IMG/VR virus record: IMGVR_UViG_3300042561_002100
Coordinates: 115,527 to 179,526 of that record
Origin: a virus
Strand: one strand, 5' to 3'
Length of the DNA: 64,000 nucleotides
Both the position numbers and the translations under genes were made by a program. The notes beneath the pieces were generated by a model, which was not told the DNA's origin, searched no databases, and was given only the letters and a program-made list of their open reading frames with translations. Within the stretch, counting starts at the first letter, position 1. Each line of letters begins with the position of its first letter. This document shows positions 4,145-55,242 of the stretch, piece after piece.

Positions 4145-4897
4145 ATGATCGGTAAACTACTAGAATCTATTAATAAGCTTCTGCCAAAAAAACAAAATAG
4201 CAAAAGTGATCCAGAATTACCAAAAGTAAAACTCGTCTCCATTACTCGGGGTGTTGGAGATCTTATGAATACTAGCGCCCAGGAAGTTATTTCATATATT
4301 GCCAGAGTGAGTAATCCAAATAATCAACTCAATTTTGATACAGCAGAGGGTCTTATTCGTTATTGTATTAAAAACAAACATGTGAGCATTTTTGAACATG
4401 CTTATATGACTCTTGAGATTAATACAACGAGAGCTATTGCAGCTCAGATTTTAAGACATAGAAGTTTCACATTTCAGGAATATAGTTTACGGTATATGGA
4501 CATAACCGCTCTTTCCGATAATCCATTAATTCCTGAACTAAGACGACAAGATAATAAGAATCGGCAAAATTCTATTGATGATTTTTCCGAAGATGAGCAA
4601 TTAAAAATGCAAAAAGAGATTCAGCAGTATTTTGATACTGGTATGAAGCTTTATGAAAAATTACTCTCAAACGGTGTCGCAAAAGAGTGTGCAAGATTTA
4701 TTCTGCCATTATCAACTCCAACAAGAATTTATATGACGGGTAACGTAAGATCCTGGATAACTTATATTGCTCTTAGAGAAAAAAATGGAACTCAGAAGGA
4801 ACATAAGGACATCGCCAAGGCATGTAAAGAAATCTTTGCGGAGCAGTTTCCAACCTGTTATGAGGCTCTCGGAGGAGACGAAGAATGGGCTATCTAG
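4145..4897 (+). CDS. thyX: Flavin-dependent thymidylate synthase
   Basis: QILRHRSFTFQEYSLRY ThyX motif; VAKECARFILP; TQKEH. Confidence 0.95.
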   Translation: MIGKLLESINKLLPKKQNSKSDPELPKVKLVSITRGVGDLMNTSAQEVISYIARVSNPNNQLNFDTAEGLIRYCIKNKHVSIFEHAYMTLEINTTRAIAAQILRHRSFTFQEYSLRYMDITALSDNPLIPELRRQDNKNRQNSIDDFSEDEQLKMQKEIQQYFDTGMKLYEKLLSNGVAKECARFILPLSTPTRIYMTGNVRSWITYIALREKNGTQKEHKDIAKACKEIFAEQFPTCYEALGGDEEWAI

Positions 4898-50853: not shown

Positions 50854-51015
50854 ATGGAAAATCTTATGTCTGAAGAAACTGTGACCATTCCTAAAAAAGA
50901 ATACGAACAACTTATTGAAGATCAACGAGTTTTAAACGCACTTGAGTAGGCAGGTGTTAATAATTGGGAGTGGTATGGTGATGCACTAGAAAGTCTATCC
51001 GAAAGCCAATCCTGA
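50854..51015 (+). pseudogene. Small phage protein interrupted by in-frame TAG
   Basis: MENLMSEETVTIPKKEYEQLIEDQRVLNALE*AGVNNWEWYGDALESL; TAG at 50947-50949. Confidence 0.65.
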
Positions 51016-51060
51016 AACCGTCCACAGTCTCTTGACAAACTAGCTCTTCCATGCTAGATT
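51016..51060 (+). promoter_or_regulatory. Early promoter of the DUF2828/RNA-motif operon
   Basis: AACCGTCCAC; TTGACA-17-TAGATT at +39, extended TG. Confidence 0.85.
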
Positions 51061-51071
51061 GAACAAGTTCA

Positions 51072-51134
51072 AAGATGAGACAGCAATTCCCCTTCGCTCT
51101 TTCCTTTTAAGAAAACAAAGCCAAAACTCATCTT
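51072..51134 (+). ncRNA. CAGCA stem motif, copy A (operon leader)
   Basis: AAGATGAG-A-CAGCAATT...AAAA-CTCATCTT; 8-bp closing stem. Confidence 0.75.
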
Positions 51135-51155
51135 GTCTAATCATCCAAACTAATT

Positions 51156-51365
51156 ATGAATTCAACTCAATCACTAGAACCACATCAACAACGAATGATT
51201 GATGAGCATTCCGAACTTTCTCAACGTCTTTCTGATCTTCGCCACTTTTTTGATAATCCTTATTTTAAGGATCTACCTGAAGCCGAACGAGTGCGCATGA
51301 AAGCTCAAGAGCTTTTTATGACTGGTTACGAAGACATCTTGAGCCAAAGAATCGCCGCTATCTGA
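51156..51365 (+). CDS. Small conserved phage helical protein
   Basis: PHQQRMIDEH.EL..RL..L..F...L...Q...M..Y..IL.QRI. Confidence 0.75.
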   Translation: MNSTQSLEPHQQRMIDEHSELSQRLSDLRHFFDNPYFKDLPEAERVRMKAQELFMTGYEDILSQRIAAI

Positions 51366-51400
51366 ATTAAGTTAATTCCGCACCAATAACATACATTAAC

Positions 51401-52876
51401 TTGGAGAATACCATGACTTTTATGAACGCTCTTTCTACCGAAATGAATAATACGACCACCGCAAATGGTGCAAAGGCATACGAATCAACTCAAAACGAAT
51501 GTCTTGATCTCTACGGTTCCATCGGTGCTTGTCGTAATAATCTCACTCTAGCCGAGCGTCTATTCTTTGCGGCATACGAACAACATCCAGAAACGGCAGT
51601 ACGAATTCTGTTCTATTCTCGTGATATTCGCGGAGCAAGTCAAGGTGAACGCTCAGTTTTCCGGGCTCTTATGCCTAAACTCGCTCATAAGAATCCAAGA
51701 ATCGCAGCACGTCTGGTGTCTTTGATTCCTTATTATGGTCGCTGGGATGATCTTCTGTGTCTAGAGAATACTCCAGTTTGGAATGAAGTCTTGAAGACCA
51801 TTGAAACTCAACTAAAGACAGACATGAGTAGTGATAAGACTTCGCTGCTAGCCAAATGGCTTCCTTCTATCAATGCATCGTCTAAAGATAGTAAGCGTCT
51901 AGGTAGACTGATCGCAGCTCATATGGGTTGGTCTGAACGTCAATATCGCAAGAATCTTTCTGCACTTCGGGCTAAGATCAAGATTGTTGAAACTCCGATG
52001 TGTGTAAAAGAATGGAGTGTTATTGATTATGAGCATCTTCCTTCTCGTGCAGCCTTCATGTATCGCAAGGCATTTAAGAAACATGATGAGACTCGTTATT
52101 CCAATTATCTTTCAAGAGTAGAGAAAGGTGAAGCCAAGATCAATGCGGGAACATTATATCCTTATGATATTGTTAATAAGTATCTTTATCAAGGTGCTCA
52201 TAATGATAAGACTCTTGAGCTTCAATGGAATGCCTTGCCTAATTACATGGAAGATCTAGAATTTAATGGTCTTGTTGTTGCCGATGTTTCTGATTCTATG
52301 AAGAGATATGGTGGTATGCCGTTGGCAGTTTCCATCTCACTCGCAATGTATATTTCTGAGCGTAATCCATCTGAGATCTGGAAGAATAAGTTTCTGACTT
52401 TCTCTGAAGCACCAAAACTTCAAACTATTCTAGGCAACAACATTGAAGAAAAAATTAGGCATCTGAAACTAGCCGATTGGGGTTGGAATACCGATCTGAT
52501 TGCCGTTTTTGATACCATTCTGAAAGCAGCAACTGAAAATAAAGTCGCAGCTAAAGACATGCCACAAAAACTGATTATTGTTTCCGATATGCAATTTGAT
52601 GTGGCATGTAGATCCAATAAGCGTACTAACTTTGAGCAGATTCAAAAGATGTATCGGAAGTCTGGTTATGAGATGCCTCAGCTTATTTTCTGGAATGTAA
52701 ACGCAAGTGCTAATGTTCCGATTCAAGCTGATGACACTGGAACCGCATTAGTTTCTGGTTGTAGTCCTGCTATTCTGAAGTCTGTTCTGAGTGGTAAAAT
52801 CGTATCTCCTGTGGATGTTATGATGGATAGCCTTTATGTAGAGCGTTATGCTCCGATTGGTGAAGTTTTTGCCTGA
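51401..52876 (+). CDS. DUF2828-family protein with C-terminal vWA domain (putatively Ro60/TROVE-like)
   Basis: T.NGA.AY.ST...LDL; RDIRG..GER; YGRWDDL; AKWLPS; LYPYDIV; MIDAS-like DVSDSM; IIVSDMQFD; FWNV. Confidence 0.85.
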   Translation: MENTMTFMNALSTEMNNTTTANGAKAYESTQNECLDLYGSIGACRNNLTLAERLFFAAYEQHPETAVRILFYSRDIRGASQGERSVFRALMPKLAHKNPRIAARLVSLIPYYGRWDDLLCLENTPVWNEVLKTIETQLKTDMSSDKTSLLAKWLPSINASSKDSKRLGRLIAAHMGWSERQYRKNLSALRAKIKIVETPMCVKEWSVIDYEHLPSRAAFMYRKAFKKHDETRYSNYLSRVEKGEAKINAGTLYPYDIVNKYLYQGAHNDKTLELQWNALPNYMEDLEFNGLVVADVSDSMKRYGGMPLAVSISLAMYISERNPSEIWKNKFLTFSEAPKLQTILGNNIEEKIRHLKLADWGWNTDLIAVFDTILKAATENKVAAKDMPQKLIIVSDMQFDVACRSNKRTNFEQIQKMYRKSGYEMPQLIFWNVNASANVPIQADDTGTALVSGCSPAILKSVLSGKIVSPVDVMMDSLYVERYAPIGEVFA

Positions 52877-52889
52877 TTGATAAATTTTT

Positions 52890-52939
52890 AAGATGGTTCA
52901 GCAATTCTCCTATGTTTTGGGTACATAAAAGACCATCTT
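52890..52939 (+). ncRNA. CAGCA stem motif, copy B
   Basis: AAGATGGT-T-CAGCAATT-[TATGT/ACATA hairpin]-AAAG-ACCATCTT. Confidence 0.75.
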
Positions 52940-52946
52940 GTTTAAC

Positions 52947-53062
52947 GGGCGGGTAGCTCAGCTGGTAGAGCAGTAGAACACTTAAAACAAATCTAGTCTA
53001 GATTTTAACAGCATTATAAATACAAAATCTCCGGGTCCTAGGTTCAAGTCCTAGTCCGCCCA
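52947..53062 (+). ncRNA. tRNA-like RNA 1 with 50-nt anticodon loop carrying motif copy C
   Basis: Acceptor GGGCGGG/TCCGCCC; D arm GCTC-AGCTGGTA-GAGC; T arm CTAGG-TTCAAGT-CCTAG; no assignable anticodon. Confidence 0.8.
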
Positions 53063-53063
53063 T

Positions 53064-53110
53064 TAGATGATTCAGCAATTCTTTCTTCGCTAGGAACACA
53101 AAATCATCTA
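53064..53110 (+). ncRNA. CAGCA stem motif, copy D
   Basis: TAGATGATT-CAGCAATT-[hairpin]-ACAA-AATCATCTA, right after the tRNA-like 3' end. Confidence 0.8.
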
Positions 53111-53137
53111 GCTAAACAACTCTTTCAACTCTCAAAA

Positions 53138-53374
53138 ATGTTCAATTTCATTTCCAACATCTTATTCCCATTTCTTGTTTCTGTTGCTATTGGTTGTTAT
53201 ATAGGATCAAGTTATATGAGGGATATGACTGTTATCTACTGTAATGAAAATCCTACAATTTGCCAACAAGAATACAAAATCACAAAATCTAAGTATCCAA
53301 ATGTTAATTTTACTGTAGAAGCTCCCACCATCGGTCAAGAAAAACCCAAAGTGAACATTATTGATACTAAATAA
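53138..53374 (+). CDS. Small membrane protein
   Basis: N-terminal TM helix; YC.ENPT.C motif. Confidence 0.6.
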   Translation: MFNFISNILFPFLVSVAIGCYIGSSYMRDMTVIYCNENPTICQQEYKITKSKYPNVNFTVEAPTIGQEKPKVNIIDTK

Positions 53375-53379
53375 CCATC

Positions 53380-53453
53380 AGCGGGCGAGTGTAACGGTAG
53401 TCACGTCGGGCTCATAACCCGGAGGAATATGGGTTCAATTCCCAGGTCCGCCA
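53380..53453 (+). tRNA. tRNA-fMet(CAT), initiator type
   Basis: TCGGG-CT CAT AA-CCCGG with three G-C pairs; 1:72 mismatch; TTCAATT T loop; CTAAATA at 53367. Confidence 0.85.
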
Positions 53454-53454
53454 T

Positions 53455-53510
53455 TAGATGATTCAGCAATTTCAAAACTTTCTTATTGGTTTAGAAAACA
53501 AAATCATCTA
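53455..53510 (+). ncRNA. CAGCA stem motif, copy E
   Basis: TAGATGATT-CAGCAATT-[TTTCT/AGAAA]-ACAA-AATCATCTA. Confidence 0.8.
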
Positions 53511-53517
53511 GTTCATT

Positions 53518-53616
53518 AGAAGAGTAGCCCAATTGGTTGAGGCGAGCGTAGAAACAAAAATCATCTTTTTGAGATGATTCAGCATTATCTTTCACCGAAG
53601 GACGCTTTGATGTTGG
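53518..53616 (+). ncRNA. tRNA-like RNA 2, 5' part (52-nt anticodon loop with motif copy F), split by IS
   Basis: TA-GCC..TGGTT..GGC D arm; AGCGT/ACGCT anticodon stem; GTTGG T-stem 5' strand just before the IS. Confidence 0.7.
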
Positions 53617-54896
53617 ATGAACTACTGCGAAGCTAAAGACTACGCGGTTTCCTGCTTCACAGAAGTTGCCTCTAGTTCCTTATGAACCTTTGGTCTTACA
53701 CTATCTCCACAGGCAGACACGGTAGTTCCTACCGCCAAAATGTTTTTCGCCGCATTAATGTCTCTATCATGATGACTACCACAATCAGGACAAGTCCATT
53801 CTCGGACATTTAACGGCATTTTAGTTTGAATAGAACCACAAGAGGAACAAGTTTTACTAGAAGGATACCATTGGTTAATAATAATTAACTCACGCCCATA
53901 CCAGTTGCATTTGTACTTCAAATAACTGCGAAACTGATACCAACCTTGTTCGCTAATTGCTCTGGATAACTTGCGGTTCTTAACCATATTTTTGATTTTT
54001 AAGTCCTCAAGAACGATAACTTGGTTTTCGTTAACGAGTTGTCTTGAGACTTGATGATGAAAGTTTAGTCTAATGAACTTAATTTTTTCATACTGTCTTG
54101 CGACTTTTAATCTTGCTTTGTTTCTGTTTTTAGAACCTTTTTGTTTTTTATAAAGTTTCTTTTGAAGTTTCTTTAATTTTTGATACTCTTTCTTTAAATC
54201 TGGAGACTTGATTTTATCTCCACTGGAGGTTGTAGCAAAAGTAGTAATACCCAAGTCAATACCAATTTGGTTGTTTACTTTAGGTAATGGTTCAATAGAA
54301 ACCTCAAGATTAAAAGAAACAAACCACTTTCCAGAAGGTTCAAGTATAATATAAATATACTTGATTTCTTGATTTTGTGGTAGTTGTCTATGAAACCTGA
54401 TGTTTAATGGTTGTTTGTTTTTAGCAATAAAGAACTTTCCGTCTTTAATGGAAAAAGCGCAAGTGTCAAGACCAATAGAATTGGTTCCAGACTTTTTCTT
54501 GAAGTTTGGAAAACCACAATTTCCTTTAAAGAACTTTTTATAAGTTCCGTCAAGTTCGTAAATAGAATACCTTAAAGGTATAATAGATACTTCACTCAAC
54601 CAAGAGTATTCAGGTTCTTTTTTAAGTTGCGTAAGTATTTTTGCTGTGTCGTAGTAAGACAAAGACTTATTTTCTTGTTTCCAAGATTTTTGTCTCAAAT
54701 CAAGAAAATAATTCCAGACCAATCTAGAACACCCAAGTGTCTTACGAAGCAAAATTTCTTGTTCTTTATTTGGATATAGTCTAAATCTAAATCCTTGACG
54801 CACTTGGGTTAAATGCATTATACTTACACAACTATTTATTAAAGTTTAATTCTTGACCCCGATGCTAAAGACATCGGGGATTGCGGATTAATTTAG
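53617..54896 (-). mobile_element. IS200/IS605-family element, tnpB only (IS1341-like)
   Basis: Subterminal hairpins sharing loop CTAAAGA at 53627-53646 and 54857-54879; no tnpA; ends uncertain by 1-2 nt. Confidence 0.85.
53640..54818 (-). CDS. tnpB: TnpB RNA-guided nuclease
   Basis: HTH FRLYPNKEQ..GCSR.VWN; RuvC IGIDLG / LEDL / DRDINAAKNI; zinc finger CSSC..CPDC. Confidence 0.95.
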   Translation of the reverse strand: MHLTQVRQGFRFRLYPNKEQEILLRKTLGCSRLVWNYFLDLRQKSWKQENKSLSYYDTAKILTQLKKEPEYSWLSEVSIIPLRYSIYELDGTYKKFFKGNCGFPNFKKKSGTNSIGLDTCAFSIKDGKFFIAKNKQPLNIRFHRQLPQNQEIKYIYIILEPSGKWFVSFNLEVSIEPLPKVNNQIGIDLGITTFATTSSGDKIKSPDLKKEYQKLKKLQKKLYKKQKGSKNRNKARLKVARQYEKIKFIRLNFHHQVSRQLVNENQVIVLEDLKIKNMVKNRKLSRAISEQGWYQFRSYLKYKCNWYGRELIIINQWYPSSKTCSSCGSIQTKMPLNVREWTCPDCGSHHDRDINAAKNILAVGTTVSACGDSVRPKVHKELEATSVKQETA

Positions 54897-54916
54897 TTCA
54901 TGTCCATCCTACTCTG
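54897..54916 (+). ncRNA. tRNA-like RNA 2, 3' part
   Basis: TTCATGT-CCATC-CTACTCT-G supplies T loop, T-stem 3' strand and acceptor 3' strand when the IS is removed. Confidence 0.55.
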
Positions 54917-54943
54917 TTGGTAATCAATTTCAATTATAATATT

Positions 54944-55111
54944 ATGTTAAAAATTACAAGCGGCATCACAAAACATCTCTGCGGCTCTTCACCATATTAT
55001 CACATTGAAGATAAAGACTTATCATCAGAACACTGGACTACCTTCAATCATGAGGGGTTAAAAGAACAACACAAAGAAGCCATTTGCCTTTTTGTGACCA
55101 ATTGCACTTAA
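54944..55111 (+). CDS. Hypothetical protein
   Basis: ATG 54944; the track start lies inside the IS end. Confidence 0.45.
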   Translation: MLKITSGITKHLCGSSPYYHIEDKDLSSEHWTTFNHEGLKEQHKEAICLFVTNCT

Positions 55112-55242
55112 AAAATGGGAATAATGAAATACTTTTTGGGTACTGTGGTTCATAAGAGACTTATTCTCCCACCACAATAATTAAGACTGTCTAAATAATA
55201 TCCAACAGACTTTAACACCACAAAAACGATCACTTAGTCTGT

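What the first reader, a model, noticed from the sequence alone, without database searches (positions are those of the whole stretch)
51016..54916. Candidate new ribonucleoprotein system: DUF2828 (Ro60-like) gene with six copies of a covarying CAGCA RNA motif
Seen: one operon runs promoter, motif A, small ORF, DUF2828, motif B, tRNA-like 1 (motif C inside), motif D, ORF, tRNA-fMet, motif E, tRNA-like 2 (motif F inside). The closing stem covaries: AGATGAG/CTCATCT, AGATGGT/ACCATCT, AGATTTT/AAAATCT, AGATGATT/AATCATCT. The unpaired CAGCA(A)TT on one side and an A-rich AAAA/ACAA tract on the other stay constant, and the enclosed hairpin is free to vary. I saw the motif nowhere else in the window. 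Established: Ro60/TROVE proteins (helical ring plus vWA domain) bind a conserved stem of Y RNAs, and bacterial Y RNAs include tRNA mimics. Inference: DUF2828 is Ro60-like and this motif is its binding or processing site, used for autoregulation (copy A in the leader), for tRNA maturation or protection, and for building tRNA-mimic partner RNAs. I cannot exclude that the motif is already in Rfam.
Basis: partly seen in the sequence, partly recalled or inferred. Interest (0 to 1): 0.95.

Follow-up and report, generated by a model that had tools for sequence, protein, structure and literature searches.

The report
Ro60-like phage protein, partner RNAs
A lake-water phage encodes a ring-shaped protein built like the RNA-surveillance protein Ro60 and surrounds its gene with six copies of a short RNA "handle", two of them built into tRNA-shaped RNAs. 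The same gene-plus-handle pairing recurs in many very different phages and I found no paper or RNA catalogue entry for it, so these are probably the protein's partner RNAs.

Summary
Six copies of a stem-plus-CAGCA motif lie on one strand at 51071-53588 and nowhere else in the 179.5 kb phage record.

- **Two forms.** Four copies are "open" handles: an 8-10 bp terminal stem, unpaired CAGCAAU, a variable hairpin and an A-rich strand. Two are a circularly permuted "closed" handle inside the anticodon arm of tRNA-like genes.
- **Independent detection.** Covariance models built only from distant relatives recover all six copies.
- **Protein fold.** The DUF2828/DUF7788 protein folds like full-length Ro60 (Z 23.4, 413 residues aligned, intact MIDAS). 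It has no significant sequence match to TROVE.
- **Linkage.** In 85 phage loci holding a homologue, all 138 open-handle and 96 closed-handle matches lie on the gene's strand, and most lie just upstream of the gene. Four phages without the gene have no handle.
- **Catalogues.** Rfam has no match.
- **Closest known.** By architecture these are Ro60 with YrlA-type Y RNAs. By handle sequence they are the Dictyostelium Class I RNAs.

The best reading is Y-RNA-like partner RNAs of a Ro60-like protein, released by tRNA processing. Binding itself is inferred, not shown. This scan has already met the same system on other DNA, in at least 19 genomes. I found no published description.

The parts
51032..51060 (+). 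Sigma-70-type promoter-like site (TTGACA, 17 nt, TAGATT, with TG before the -10). The predicted start falls a few bases before handle A.
   Evidence: 10 of 12 matches; a consensus match only; the same layout is seen in phage B3 and L009
51071..51135 (+). Open handle A, the leader copy: terminal stem, unpaired CAGCAAU, variable interior, A-rich 3' strand
   Evidence: R1 17.9 bits, E 0.14; pattern match; fold z -1.2. Weak on score; supported by its position and by the orthologous copy in L008 and L015.
51156..51365 (+). 69-aa ORF of Pfam family crAss001_48, lying between the leader handle and the Ro60-like gene. It is absent at this place in most relatives.
   Evidence: E 2.4e-18; for relatives
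51413..52876 (+). Gene for the Ro60-like protein (487 aa): DUF2828 helical part plus DUF7788 vWA part with a complete MIDAS motif
   Evidence: Pfam; fold; invariant D291, S293, S295, T360, D392; 6816 clusters at 50% identity
52889..52940 (+). Open handle B
   Evidence: R1 27.9 bits, E 8e-4; fold z -2.8
52947..53062 (+). tRNA-like 1: acceptor, D and T arms of a tRNA, with about 50 nt inserted in the anticodon arm and no canonical anticodon loop (A at position 33)
   Evidence: Rfam tRNA 42.7 bits with a 50-nt insert; ARAGORN finds it only with the intron option; fold
52979..53017 (+). Closed (circularly permuted) handle C inside tRNA-like 1: A-rich strand, capped stem, then CAGCAUU
   Evidence: R2 27.3 bits, E 4e-4
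53063..53111 (+). Open handle D. Its first base is the one right after the discriminator base of tRNA-like 1.
   Evidence: R1 32.5 bits; fold z -3.5; spacing
53138..53374 (+). 78-aa ORF with a hydrophobic N-terminus and no Pfam match. It is co-transcribed by position; whether it belongs to the system is unknown.
   Evidence: conserved in L008
53380..53453 (+). tRNA-Met (CAU) with initiator-like features: a 1:72 mismatch and three G-C pairs next to the anticodon loop
   Evidence: features read from the sequence
53454..53511 (+). Open handle E. It starts at the base right after the tRNA-Met discriminator.
   Evidence: R1 38.2 bits, E 4e-6; fold z -4.6
53518..53627 (+). tRNA-like 2, 5' part only (acceptor 5' strand, D arm, anticodon arm with insert). 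The T arm and 3' acceptor strand were lost to the insertion that follows.
   Evidence: comparison with the intact orthologue L008:4868-4990
53551..53588 (+). Closed handle F inside tRNA-like 2
   Evidence: R2 16.6 bits, E 0.18; orthologous copies in L008 and L015
53628..55191 (-). Window-specific 1.6 kb insertion carrying a TnpB gene (53640-54818, minus strand). It is not part of the system; it disrupts tRNA-like 2.
   Evidence: Pfam OrfB_IS605, Cas12f1-like_TNB, HTH_OrfB_IS605; breakpoints against L008

Best explanation
The locus encodes a Ro60/Y-RNA-type ribonucleoprotein built from a different protein family and a different RNA handle.

**Protein.** The 487-aa DUF2828/DUF7788 protein is a helical-repeat ring plus a vWA domain, like Ro60.

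**Transcription and processing.** One promoter drives a transcript that carries the gene, two tRNA-like RNAs, an initiator-like tRNA and four small RNAs. Each small RNA has its two ends paired in an 8-10 bp stem. An unpaired CAGCAAU follows the 5' strand, and an A-rich strand lies opposite. The small RNAs are most likely released by the host's tRNA-processing enzymes, because two of them begin at the base right after a tRNA's discriminator.

**Proposed binding.** I propose that the protein binds this handle (stem plus single-stranded CAGCAA) as Ro60 binds the conserved stem of Y RNAs. The variable interior would be the displayed cargo. In the two tRNA-like RNAs the same handle is circularly permuted: its stem is capped by a loop and sits in the anticodon arm. 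The protein would then be tethered to a tRNA-shaped body, as Ro60 is by YrlA. The leader copy may also let the protein sense its own messenger.

**Shown:** the motif, its two forms, the fold and the genomic linkage.
**Inferred:** binding, processing and the biological role. The likely role is handling, protecting or mimicking tRNAs during infection.
For: **Fold.**
- AF2 model: pLDDT 92.5, pTM 0.91.
- Foldseek ranks 1-13 are all Ro60/TROVE, full length, E 2e-8 to 2e-4.
- VIA-align gives Z 23.4, rmsd 3.8 A and 413 aligned residues for model residues 10-472 against Ro60 12-537. vWA-only hits reach Z about 10.
- The MIDAS residues are invariant across 57 homologues.

**Handle.**
- R1 and R2 were built without any window sequence and recover all six copies.
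- In the open-handle seed alignment the outermost U-G pair, a G-C pair and CAGCA are invariant. Six of the eight stem pairs change on both sides.
- In the closed form all 7 stem pairs change on both sides. 86.5% of cells pair, against 35-50% when the partner is slid by 1-3 columns.

**Test without selection for pairing.**
- Among CAGCAA hexamers within 500 nt upstream of the gene, 101 of 161 have a stem of at least 8 bp.
- The controls are 4 of 44 inside the gene, 31 of 185 on the other strand and 9 of 75 in reversed sequence.

**Linkage.**
- 138 R1 and 96 R2 matches (E <= 0.1) in 85 loci (528 kb, both strands searched) are all on the gene's strand.
- In my transcription of 136 of the 138 R1 matches, 75 lie within 300 nt upstream of the start codon and none lies inside the gene.
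- In five whole phage contigs, 22 of 23 matches lie within about 5 kb of the gene.
- Phage B3 has both the gene and handles. S-PM2, Syn9, P-SSM2 and T4 have neither.

**Biogenesis hint.** Handles D and E start at position 74 of the preceding tRNA. Twelve of 33 tRNA-adjacent handles in relatives do the same.

**Precedent.** YrlA Y RNAs are encoded next to rsr on the same strand, carry a tRNA-like domain and are bound through a short motif in the 5' strand of the terminal stem (PMC4201824).
Against: - There is no direct evidence that the protein binds the RNA, or that the small RNAs accumulate; I found no RNA data for this phage.
- The protein has no significant sequence similarity to TROVE, so homology with Ro60 rests on a predicted fold.
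- The handle does not resemble the Ro60-binding motif of Y RNAs (GNCGAA / GGUCCGA), and no Y RNA model of Rfam matches.
- Copies A and F score weakly (E 0.14 and 0.18).
- 21 of 85 homologue loci had no R1 match at E <= 0.1 within 2.5 kb. At least two of these, L010 and L013, do carry recognisable copies.
- Genomic linkage would also be produced by any function that merely requires co-expression.
- The record has no RtcB. The repair context of Salmonella rsr is therefore absent, but the record is only 83% complete.
Confidence: 0.65

Rival explanations
1. The handle is a processing or stability signal of the tRNA operon. It would act as punctuation read by a host or phage RNase, or as a protective terminal stem, and it works without being bound by the DUF2828 protein. 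The protein would act on other RNAs.
For: - Handles D and E abut tRNA 3' ends exactly, and 12 of 33 tRNA-adjacent handles in relatives do the same.
- The handles are interleaved with tRNAs and tRNA-likes.
Against: - Most copies in relatives (75 of the 136 R1 matches I transcribed) lie in the gene's leader, often with no tRNA nearby; 103 of the 136 have no tRNA within 60 nt upstream.
- The tRNA clusters of T4, S-PM2, Syn9 and P-SSM2, which lack the gene, have no handle.
- An invariant single-stranded CAGCA suggests sequence-specific recognition rather than a generic stem.
Confidence: 0.12
2. The closed copies are introns (or sites of cleavage and re-ligation) of real tRNA genes. The handle would be the recognition element of a splicing or self-cleaving activity, and the Ro60-like protein at most a cofactor.
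For: - In relatives the insert interrupts the 5' strand of an otherwise perfect 5-bp anticodon stem, after 0, 2, 3 or 4 pairs.
- A normal 7-nt loop with U33 and a purine at 37 follows, and the anticodon differs between orthologues. My script required U33, so that feature is partly by selection.
- The cap of the closed handle keeps the terminal bases of the open form, as if the ends had been joined.
Against: - No ribozyme or intron family of Rfam matches.
- No RtcB was found, and the only RNA_ligase-family gene lies 70 kb away.
- The window's own two tRNA-likes lack a canonical anticodon loop (A33 and C33), so splicing would not yield a usable tRNA here.
- The four open copies are not inside tRNAs.
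- The anticodon stem can also form with the handle left in place as an extra arm.
Confidence: 0.1
3. The copies are DNA-level repeats: ends or miniature derivatives of the neighbouring IS200/IS605-type (TnpB) element, or recombination sites.
For: - A TnpB element lies right beside copy F.
- Elements of this family use subterminal hairpins and insert with a strand bias (established knowledge).
Against: - The element is specific to this window. The 95% identical relative L008 and all other relatives have the handles without it.
- The copies always follow the orientation of the DUF2828 gene.
- The stems covary instead of being identical. They include an invariant U-G wobble pair, which does not pair on the complementary strand.
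Confidence: 0.02

Closest known systems
Ro60 (Rsr, TROVE + vWA) with Y RNAs, especially bacterial and mycobacteriophage YrlA/YrlB (Chen et al. 2014, PMC4201824); phage example: Thermus phage phiLo Ro60 (PDB 9l5y; PMC12135203)
   Same: - Ring of helical repeats plus a vWA domain with MIDAS.
- Several small RNAs are encoded beside the gene on the same strand.
- The RNA ends pair in a stem that carries a short conserved motif on the 5' side.
- At least one partner RNA has a tRNA-like body.
   Different: - The protein is not recognisable as TROVE by sequence.
- The handle sequence is CAGCAA, not GNCGAA.
- No Rfam Y RNA model matches.
- In YrlA the protein-binding stem holds the RNA's ends and the acceptor-like stem is capped. 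Here the tRNA-like RNAs keep free acceptor ends and the handle stem is capped inside the anticodon arm.
- The record has no RtcB.
Class I RNAs of dictyostelid social amoebae (Kjellin et al. 2021, PMC7919456)
   Same: - About 60 nt long, with a short covarying stem joining the 5' and 3' ends.
- A conserved motif, CCUUACAGCAA, lies directly after the 5' strand.
- The interior is variable and often A-rich before the 3' strand, and a conserved UG follows the stem.
- Distant phage relatives carry the longer form YUUACAGCAAY.
   Different: - These are eukaryotic RNAs with their own promoter element, reported as unique to Dictyostelia. Their one known direct binder is an RRM protein, Rnp1A.
- The window's copies have a shortened linker (UUCAGCAAU).
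- No Rfam family other than tRNA matches the window's copies at E <= 10.
- I did not test whether amoebae have a DUF2828 protein that binds these RNAs.
tRNA genes with introns at non-canonical positions, and split or permuted tRNA genes (archaea, red algae; from established knowledge)
   Same: An insert of about 40-50 nt interrupts the anticodon arm of an otherwise normal tRNA gene. In relatives the stem and loop are restored if the insert is ignored.
   Different: - No bulge-helix-bulge motif is apparent.
- The insert carries a conserved motif that is shared with free-standing small RNAs.
- The host range is phages of bacteria.
- Splicing is not shown.

Membership tests
Ro60 / TROVE proteins | Closed ring of HEAT-like helical repeats followed by a vWA domain | tested here: met
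   Predicted structure only. Foldseek ranks 1-13 are all Ro60/TROVE. VIA-align gives Z 23.4, rmsd 3.8 A and 413 aligned residues over residues 10-472.
Ro60 / TROVE proteins | MIDAS metal site in the vWA domain (DxSxS, T, D) | tested here: met
   D291, S293, S295, T360 and D392 are invariant in 57 homologues.
Ro60 / TROVE proteins | Sequence membership in Pfam TROVE (PF05731) | tested here: not met
   Pfam gives only DUF2828 and DUF7788. A TROVE search of the whole record finds nothing. The family profile against PDB sequences gives E 1.4 to phage TROVE proteins.
Ro60 / TROVE proteins | Binds a conserved stem of partner RNAs (Y RNAs) | not testable with these tools
   Only genomic linkage could be shown.
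Y RNAs / YrlA (Rfam) | Match to the family's covariance model | tested here: not met
   No Y RNA family appears at E <= 10 in the 5 kb or 721 nt searches.
Y RNAs / YrlA (Rfam) | Encoded beside the Ro60-type gene on the same strand, several per locus | tested here: met
   All 138 + 96 matches are on the gene's strand and clustered at the gene.
Y RNAs / YrlA (Rfam) | tRNA-like domain in at least one partner RNA | tested here: met
   tRNA-like 1 scores 42.7 bits on Rfam tRNA with a 50-nt insert that holds the handle. The topology differs from YrlA.
Dictyostelium Class I RNAs | Short covarying stem joining the two ends, with a conserved motif ending in ACAGCAA directly after the 5' strand | tested here: inconclusive
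   The architecture and the CAGCAA core are shared. The window's copies lack the UUA part of the 11-nt motif. No Rfam family other than tRNA matched.
Dictyostelium Class I RNAs | Dictyostelid genes with the upstream DUSE promoter element | tested here: not met
   These are phage genes behind a sigma-70-type promoter-like site.
tRNA (RF00005) | Cloverleaf above the gathering score, with a canonical 7-nt anticodon loop (U33, purine 37) | tested here: inconclusive
   tRNA-like 1 is above the gathering score (42.7 against 29), but the only loop next to the 3' stem strand has A33. tRNA-like 2 is truncated. Relatives' copies do have canonical loops.

The most novel reading that the evidence does not exclude
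The CAGCAA handle and the DUF2828 ring would be an ancient, widespread second branch of the Ro60/Y-RNA particle. It would extend beyond phages, so that the unexplained Class I RNAs of Dictyostelium are partner RNAs of a eukaryotic DUF2828 protein. In phages the closed handle would mark a class of tRNAs that function with the ring clamped on their anticodon arm, for example as shields or decoys against host anticodon nucleases.
Probability: 0.1. Interest if true: 0.92.

Novelty: new variant of a known kind. Interest (0 to 1): 0.8.

Why it matters
- **An unexplained protein family.** DUF2828 is a very large family (6816 clusters at 50% identity in the reference library). The five papers that mention it say nothing about its function.
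- **A concrete hypothesis.** A Ro60-like fold plus a dedicated, easily recognised RNA handle gives the family a testable role.
- **A new RNA family.** It adds a small-RNA family with hundreds of members that Rfam lacks.
- **Implications for Ro60 biology.** It suggests that Ro60-type RNA surveillance or tRNA mimicry is far more common in phages than the canonical TROVE family indicates.
- **Handle-bearing tRNAs.** They raise the question of whether phages deploy protein-clamped or decoy tRNAs against host tRNA-targeting defences.
- **Dictyostelium.** The resemblance to Class I RNAs offers a first lead on RNAs that have lacked an explanation for twenty years.

Tried and rejected
- **Rfam.** I searched the whole window at gathering scores, then 5 kb and 721 nt at E <= 10. 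Only tRNA matched; there was no ribozyme, Y RNA or other family.
- **Sequence links to solved structures.** Neither the single protein nor the family profile gave a significant match.
- **RNA-seq.** No RNA holder is listed for this stretch; all 24 runs are lake or freshwater DNA metagenomes.
- **Insertion polymorphism.** I laid four DNA runs over the TnpB insertion. No contig joined across it, so I have no evidence of a form without the insertion.
- **RNA repair genes.** RtcB and TROVE Pfam searches of the record found nothing. One RNA_ligase-family gene lies about 70 kb away and cannot be tied to the locus.
- **ARAGORN intron calls.** The anticodons it gave for the tRNA-likes were inconsistent, because the insert is not at the canonical position. 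I did not use them as identities.
- **Spliced-tRNA reading for the window's own copies.** No deletion restores a loop with U33.
- **TAG recoding.** I tested this as an explanation for an in-frame TAG upstream. Reading TAG as sense lengthens ORFs less than reading TGA or TAA as sense.
- **ESM Atlas feature search.** It returned only other DUF2828 clusters and gave no taxonomic lead to eukaryotes.
- **Class I pull-down paper.** I looked for the original paper that lists the proteins pulled down with a Class I RNA. It is not in the library.

Full report
**Source and layout.** The window is the last 64 kb of a 179.5 kb IMG/VR virus record that is 83% complete by CheckV. Its nearest deposited relatives are the 245 kb Synechococcus phages B3 and B23 (Kyanoviridae), at about 67% nucleotide identity over the gene. 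DNA runs that hold the stretch are lake and freshwater metagenomes.

- a promoter-like site (51032-51060)
- copy A (51071-51135)
- a 69-aa ORF of family crAss001_48
- the DUF2828/DUF7788 gene (51413-52876)
- copy B (52889-52940)
- tRNA-like 1 (52947-53062) with copy C inside
- copy D (53063-53111)
- a 78-aa ORF
- an initiator-like tRNA-Met (53380-53453)
- copy E (53454-53511)
- the 5' part of tRNA-like 2 with copy F

Shuffles give 0.47 on average.

The copies fall into two forms.
- **Open form (A, B, D, E).** The two ends pair in an 8-10 bp stem. The 5' strand is followed by unpaired CAGCAAU, then a variable hairpin, then an A-rich strand before the 3' strand. The minimum-energy folds show exactly this for B, D and E (z -2.8 to -4.6) and more weakly for A.
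- **Closed form (C, F).** The order is circularly permuted: A-rich strand, 3' strand, a short cap, 5' strand, then CAGCAUU. The whole module sits in the anticodon arm of a tRNA-shaped RNA. The comparative data favour the upstream partner.

**Comparative evidence.** I fetched 85 viral contigs that encode a homologue with 38-95% protein identity.
- I aligned 34 open handles from phages whose protein is at most 67% identical. The outermost U-G pair, one G-C pair and CAGCA are invariant, while six of eight stem pairs change on both sides. These seeds were picked for perfect pairing, so their 100% pairing is by construction.
- A test without that selection gives the same answer. Of all CAGCAA hexamers within 500 nt upstream of the gene, 101 of 161 are preceded by a strand that forms a stem of at least 8 bp with a downstream segment. 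The controls are 4 of 44 inside the gene, 31 of 185 on the opposite strand and 9 of 75 in reversed sequence.
- Model R1, which contains no window sequence, finds E, D, B and A and nothing else below E = 1 in the window.
- Model R2, built from 36 closed handles of other phages, finds C and F. In its alignment all seven pairs change on both sides, and 86.5% of cells pair, against 35-50% for slid controls.

**Linkage to the gene.**
- Over the 85 loci (528 kb, both strands) R1 gives 138 matches and R2 gives 96 matches at E <= 0.1. Every one is on the strand of the gene.
- I transcribed 136 of the 138 R1 matches. Seventy-five lie within 300 nt upstream of the start codon, 26 lie within 700 nt downstream, and none lies inside the gene. 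Sixty-four of 85 loci have at least one.
- In five complete or near-complete contigs (about 900 kb), 22 of 23 matches lie within about 5 kb of the gene.
- Among five deposited phages, B3 has the gene and three handles beside it. S-PM2, Syn9, P-SSM2 and T4 have neither.

**The protein.**
- Pfam sees only DUF2828 and DUF7788. The five papers that mention DUF2828 say nothing about its function.
- The family is very large: 6816 clusters at 50% identity with E <= 0.001.
- An AlphaFold2 model from 57 homologues is confident (pLDDT 92.5, pTM 0.91).
- Its 13 best Foldseek matches in the PDB are all Ro60/TROVE proteins aligned end to end: Xenopus and human Ro60, Deinococcus Rsr and Thermus phage phiLo Ro60.
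- VIA-align gives Z 23.4, rmsd 3.8 A and 413 aligned residues. vWA-only matches reach about Z 10.
- The MIDAS residues are invariant.
- There is no significant sequence similarity to TROVE. I therefore call the protein Ro60-like in fold, not a member of the TROVE family.

**The tRNA-like RNAs.**
- tRNA-like 1 scores 42.7 bits on the Rfam tRNA model with a 50-nt insert. It folds with acceptor, D and T arms plus the handle hairpin.
- Handle-bearing tRNA-shaped genes are common in the relatives. ARAGORN with its intron option called 98 such genes, and nearly all hold CAGCA.
- In many of them the insert interrupts the 5' strand of a perfect 5-bp anticodon stem, after 0, 2, 3 or 4 pairs. A normal 7-nt loop with U33 and a purine at 37 follows, and the anticodon differs between orthologues. 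My script required U33, so that feature is partly by selection.
- These could therefore be working tRNAs with an extra arm, or spliced tRNAs.
- In this window the loops are degenerate (A33 in tRNA-like 1, C33 in tRNA-like 2). tRNA-like 2 has also lost its T arm and 3' acceptor strand to a 1.6 kb insertion carrying TnpB. Here they are best described as tRNA mimics.

**Biogenesis.** Handles D and E begin at the base right after the discriminator of the preceding tRNA. Twelve of the 33 handles in relatives that lie within 60 nt downstream of a tRNA do the same. Cleavage by the enzyme that trims CCA-less tRNA precursors would then create the handle's 5' end, and RNase P at the next tRNA would free its 3' side. 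This step is inferred from position only. The promoter-like site would start transcription a few bases before handle A.

**Mechanism proposed.**
- By analogy with Ro60 and YrlA, I propose that the ring binds the handle and the variable interior or tRNA body is displayed. In YrlA, Ro60 contacts a short motif in the 5' strand of the terminal stem, and the rest of the RNA is a tRNA-like module (PMC4201824).
- The most conserved position of a handle is the gene's leader. This suits co-expression and possibly feedback, but I did not test it.
- The record has no RtcB, so the RNA-repair setting of Salmonella rsr is not evident.
- I put the probability that the handles are the protein's direct partner RNAs at about 0.65.
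- The main rivals are a protein-independent processing signal and an intron or cleavage element. A DNA-level repeat is close to excluded by three points: the strict orientation with the gene, the covarying stems with an invariant U-G wobble, and the absence of the TnpB element in relatives.

**Comparison with known systems.**
- By architecture the closest is Ro60 with YrlA-type Y RNAs. The differences are the protein family, the handle sequence and the topology of the tRNA-like partner.
- By handle sequence the closest is the Class I RNA family of dictyostelid amoebae. I checked the authors' own sequence files. These RNAs have a 6-bp covarying terminal stem, the motif CCUUACAGCAA directly after its 5' strand, a variable interior and a conserved UG after the 3' strand. 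The distant phage copies carry the same extended motif. The window's copies have a shorter linker.
- The authors report Class I RNAs as unique to Dictyostelia, with an RRM protein as the known binder. Whether amoebae pair them with a DUF2828 protein is untested, and I rate that bold reading at about 0.1.

**Earlier notes of this scan.** A look-up shows that the same system was already met on other DNA, in at least 19 genomes including Felix O1-type phages, with the same reading. I used those notes only as leads. I re-tested here the fold, the linkage, the absence from Rfam and the Class I resemblance. I found no published description of the protein's function or of the RNA family.

**Verdict.** This is a new variant of a known kind (the Ro60/Y-RNA type of particle), widespread and apparently undescribed. 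Binding and function still have to be shown at the bench.

Noticed in passing
window 53628-55191: A 1.6 kb insertion with a TnpB gene (53640-54818, minus strand; OrfB_IS605, Cas12f1-like TNB and HTH domains) replaces the T arm and 3' acceptor strand of tRNA-like 2. The 95% identical relative L008 has the intact RNA. A G+C-rich hairpin lies at 54856-54887. Contigs of three lake runs besides the possible source sample cover or bridge the left junction.
   Followed up: partly
window 50854-51015: A small ORF just upstream of the promoter has an in-frame TAG at 50947-50949 in the middle of a conserved peptide. The relative L015 has an arginine codon there. The window shows no general signal of TAG recoding, so this is probably a nonsense mutation.
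   Followed up: partly
window 53380-53453: The tRNA-Met has a mismatch at pair 1:72 and three consecutive G-C pairs next to the anticodon loop.
   Followed up: partly
L008 4228-4403: The closest relative carries one more open handle (4228-4281) and one more handle-bearing tRNA-like gene (about 4290-4403) between copy D and the 78-aa ORF. The number of modules therefore changes quickly between near-identical phages.
   Followed up: no
L066 4901-5021: In a distant relative the handle's terminal stem encloses a complete, apparently normal tRNA gene as its cargo.
   Followed up: no
L086 301-426; L064 1992-2118: Some handle-bearing tRNAs in relatives have anticodon loops that would read stop codons (for example anticodon CUA). 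They may be suppressor tRNAs.
   Followed up: no
window 51156-51365: A 69-aa ORF of Pfam family crAss001_48 lies between the leader handle and the Ro60-like gene in this lineage only. Most relatives have one or two handles directly before the start codon instead.
   Followed up: no
G000:C1:96819-97469 (outside the window): The phage record has one gene of the RNA_ligase family (PF09414, 47.5 bits) about 70 kb from the locus, and no RtcB.
   Followed up: no
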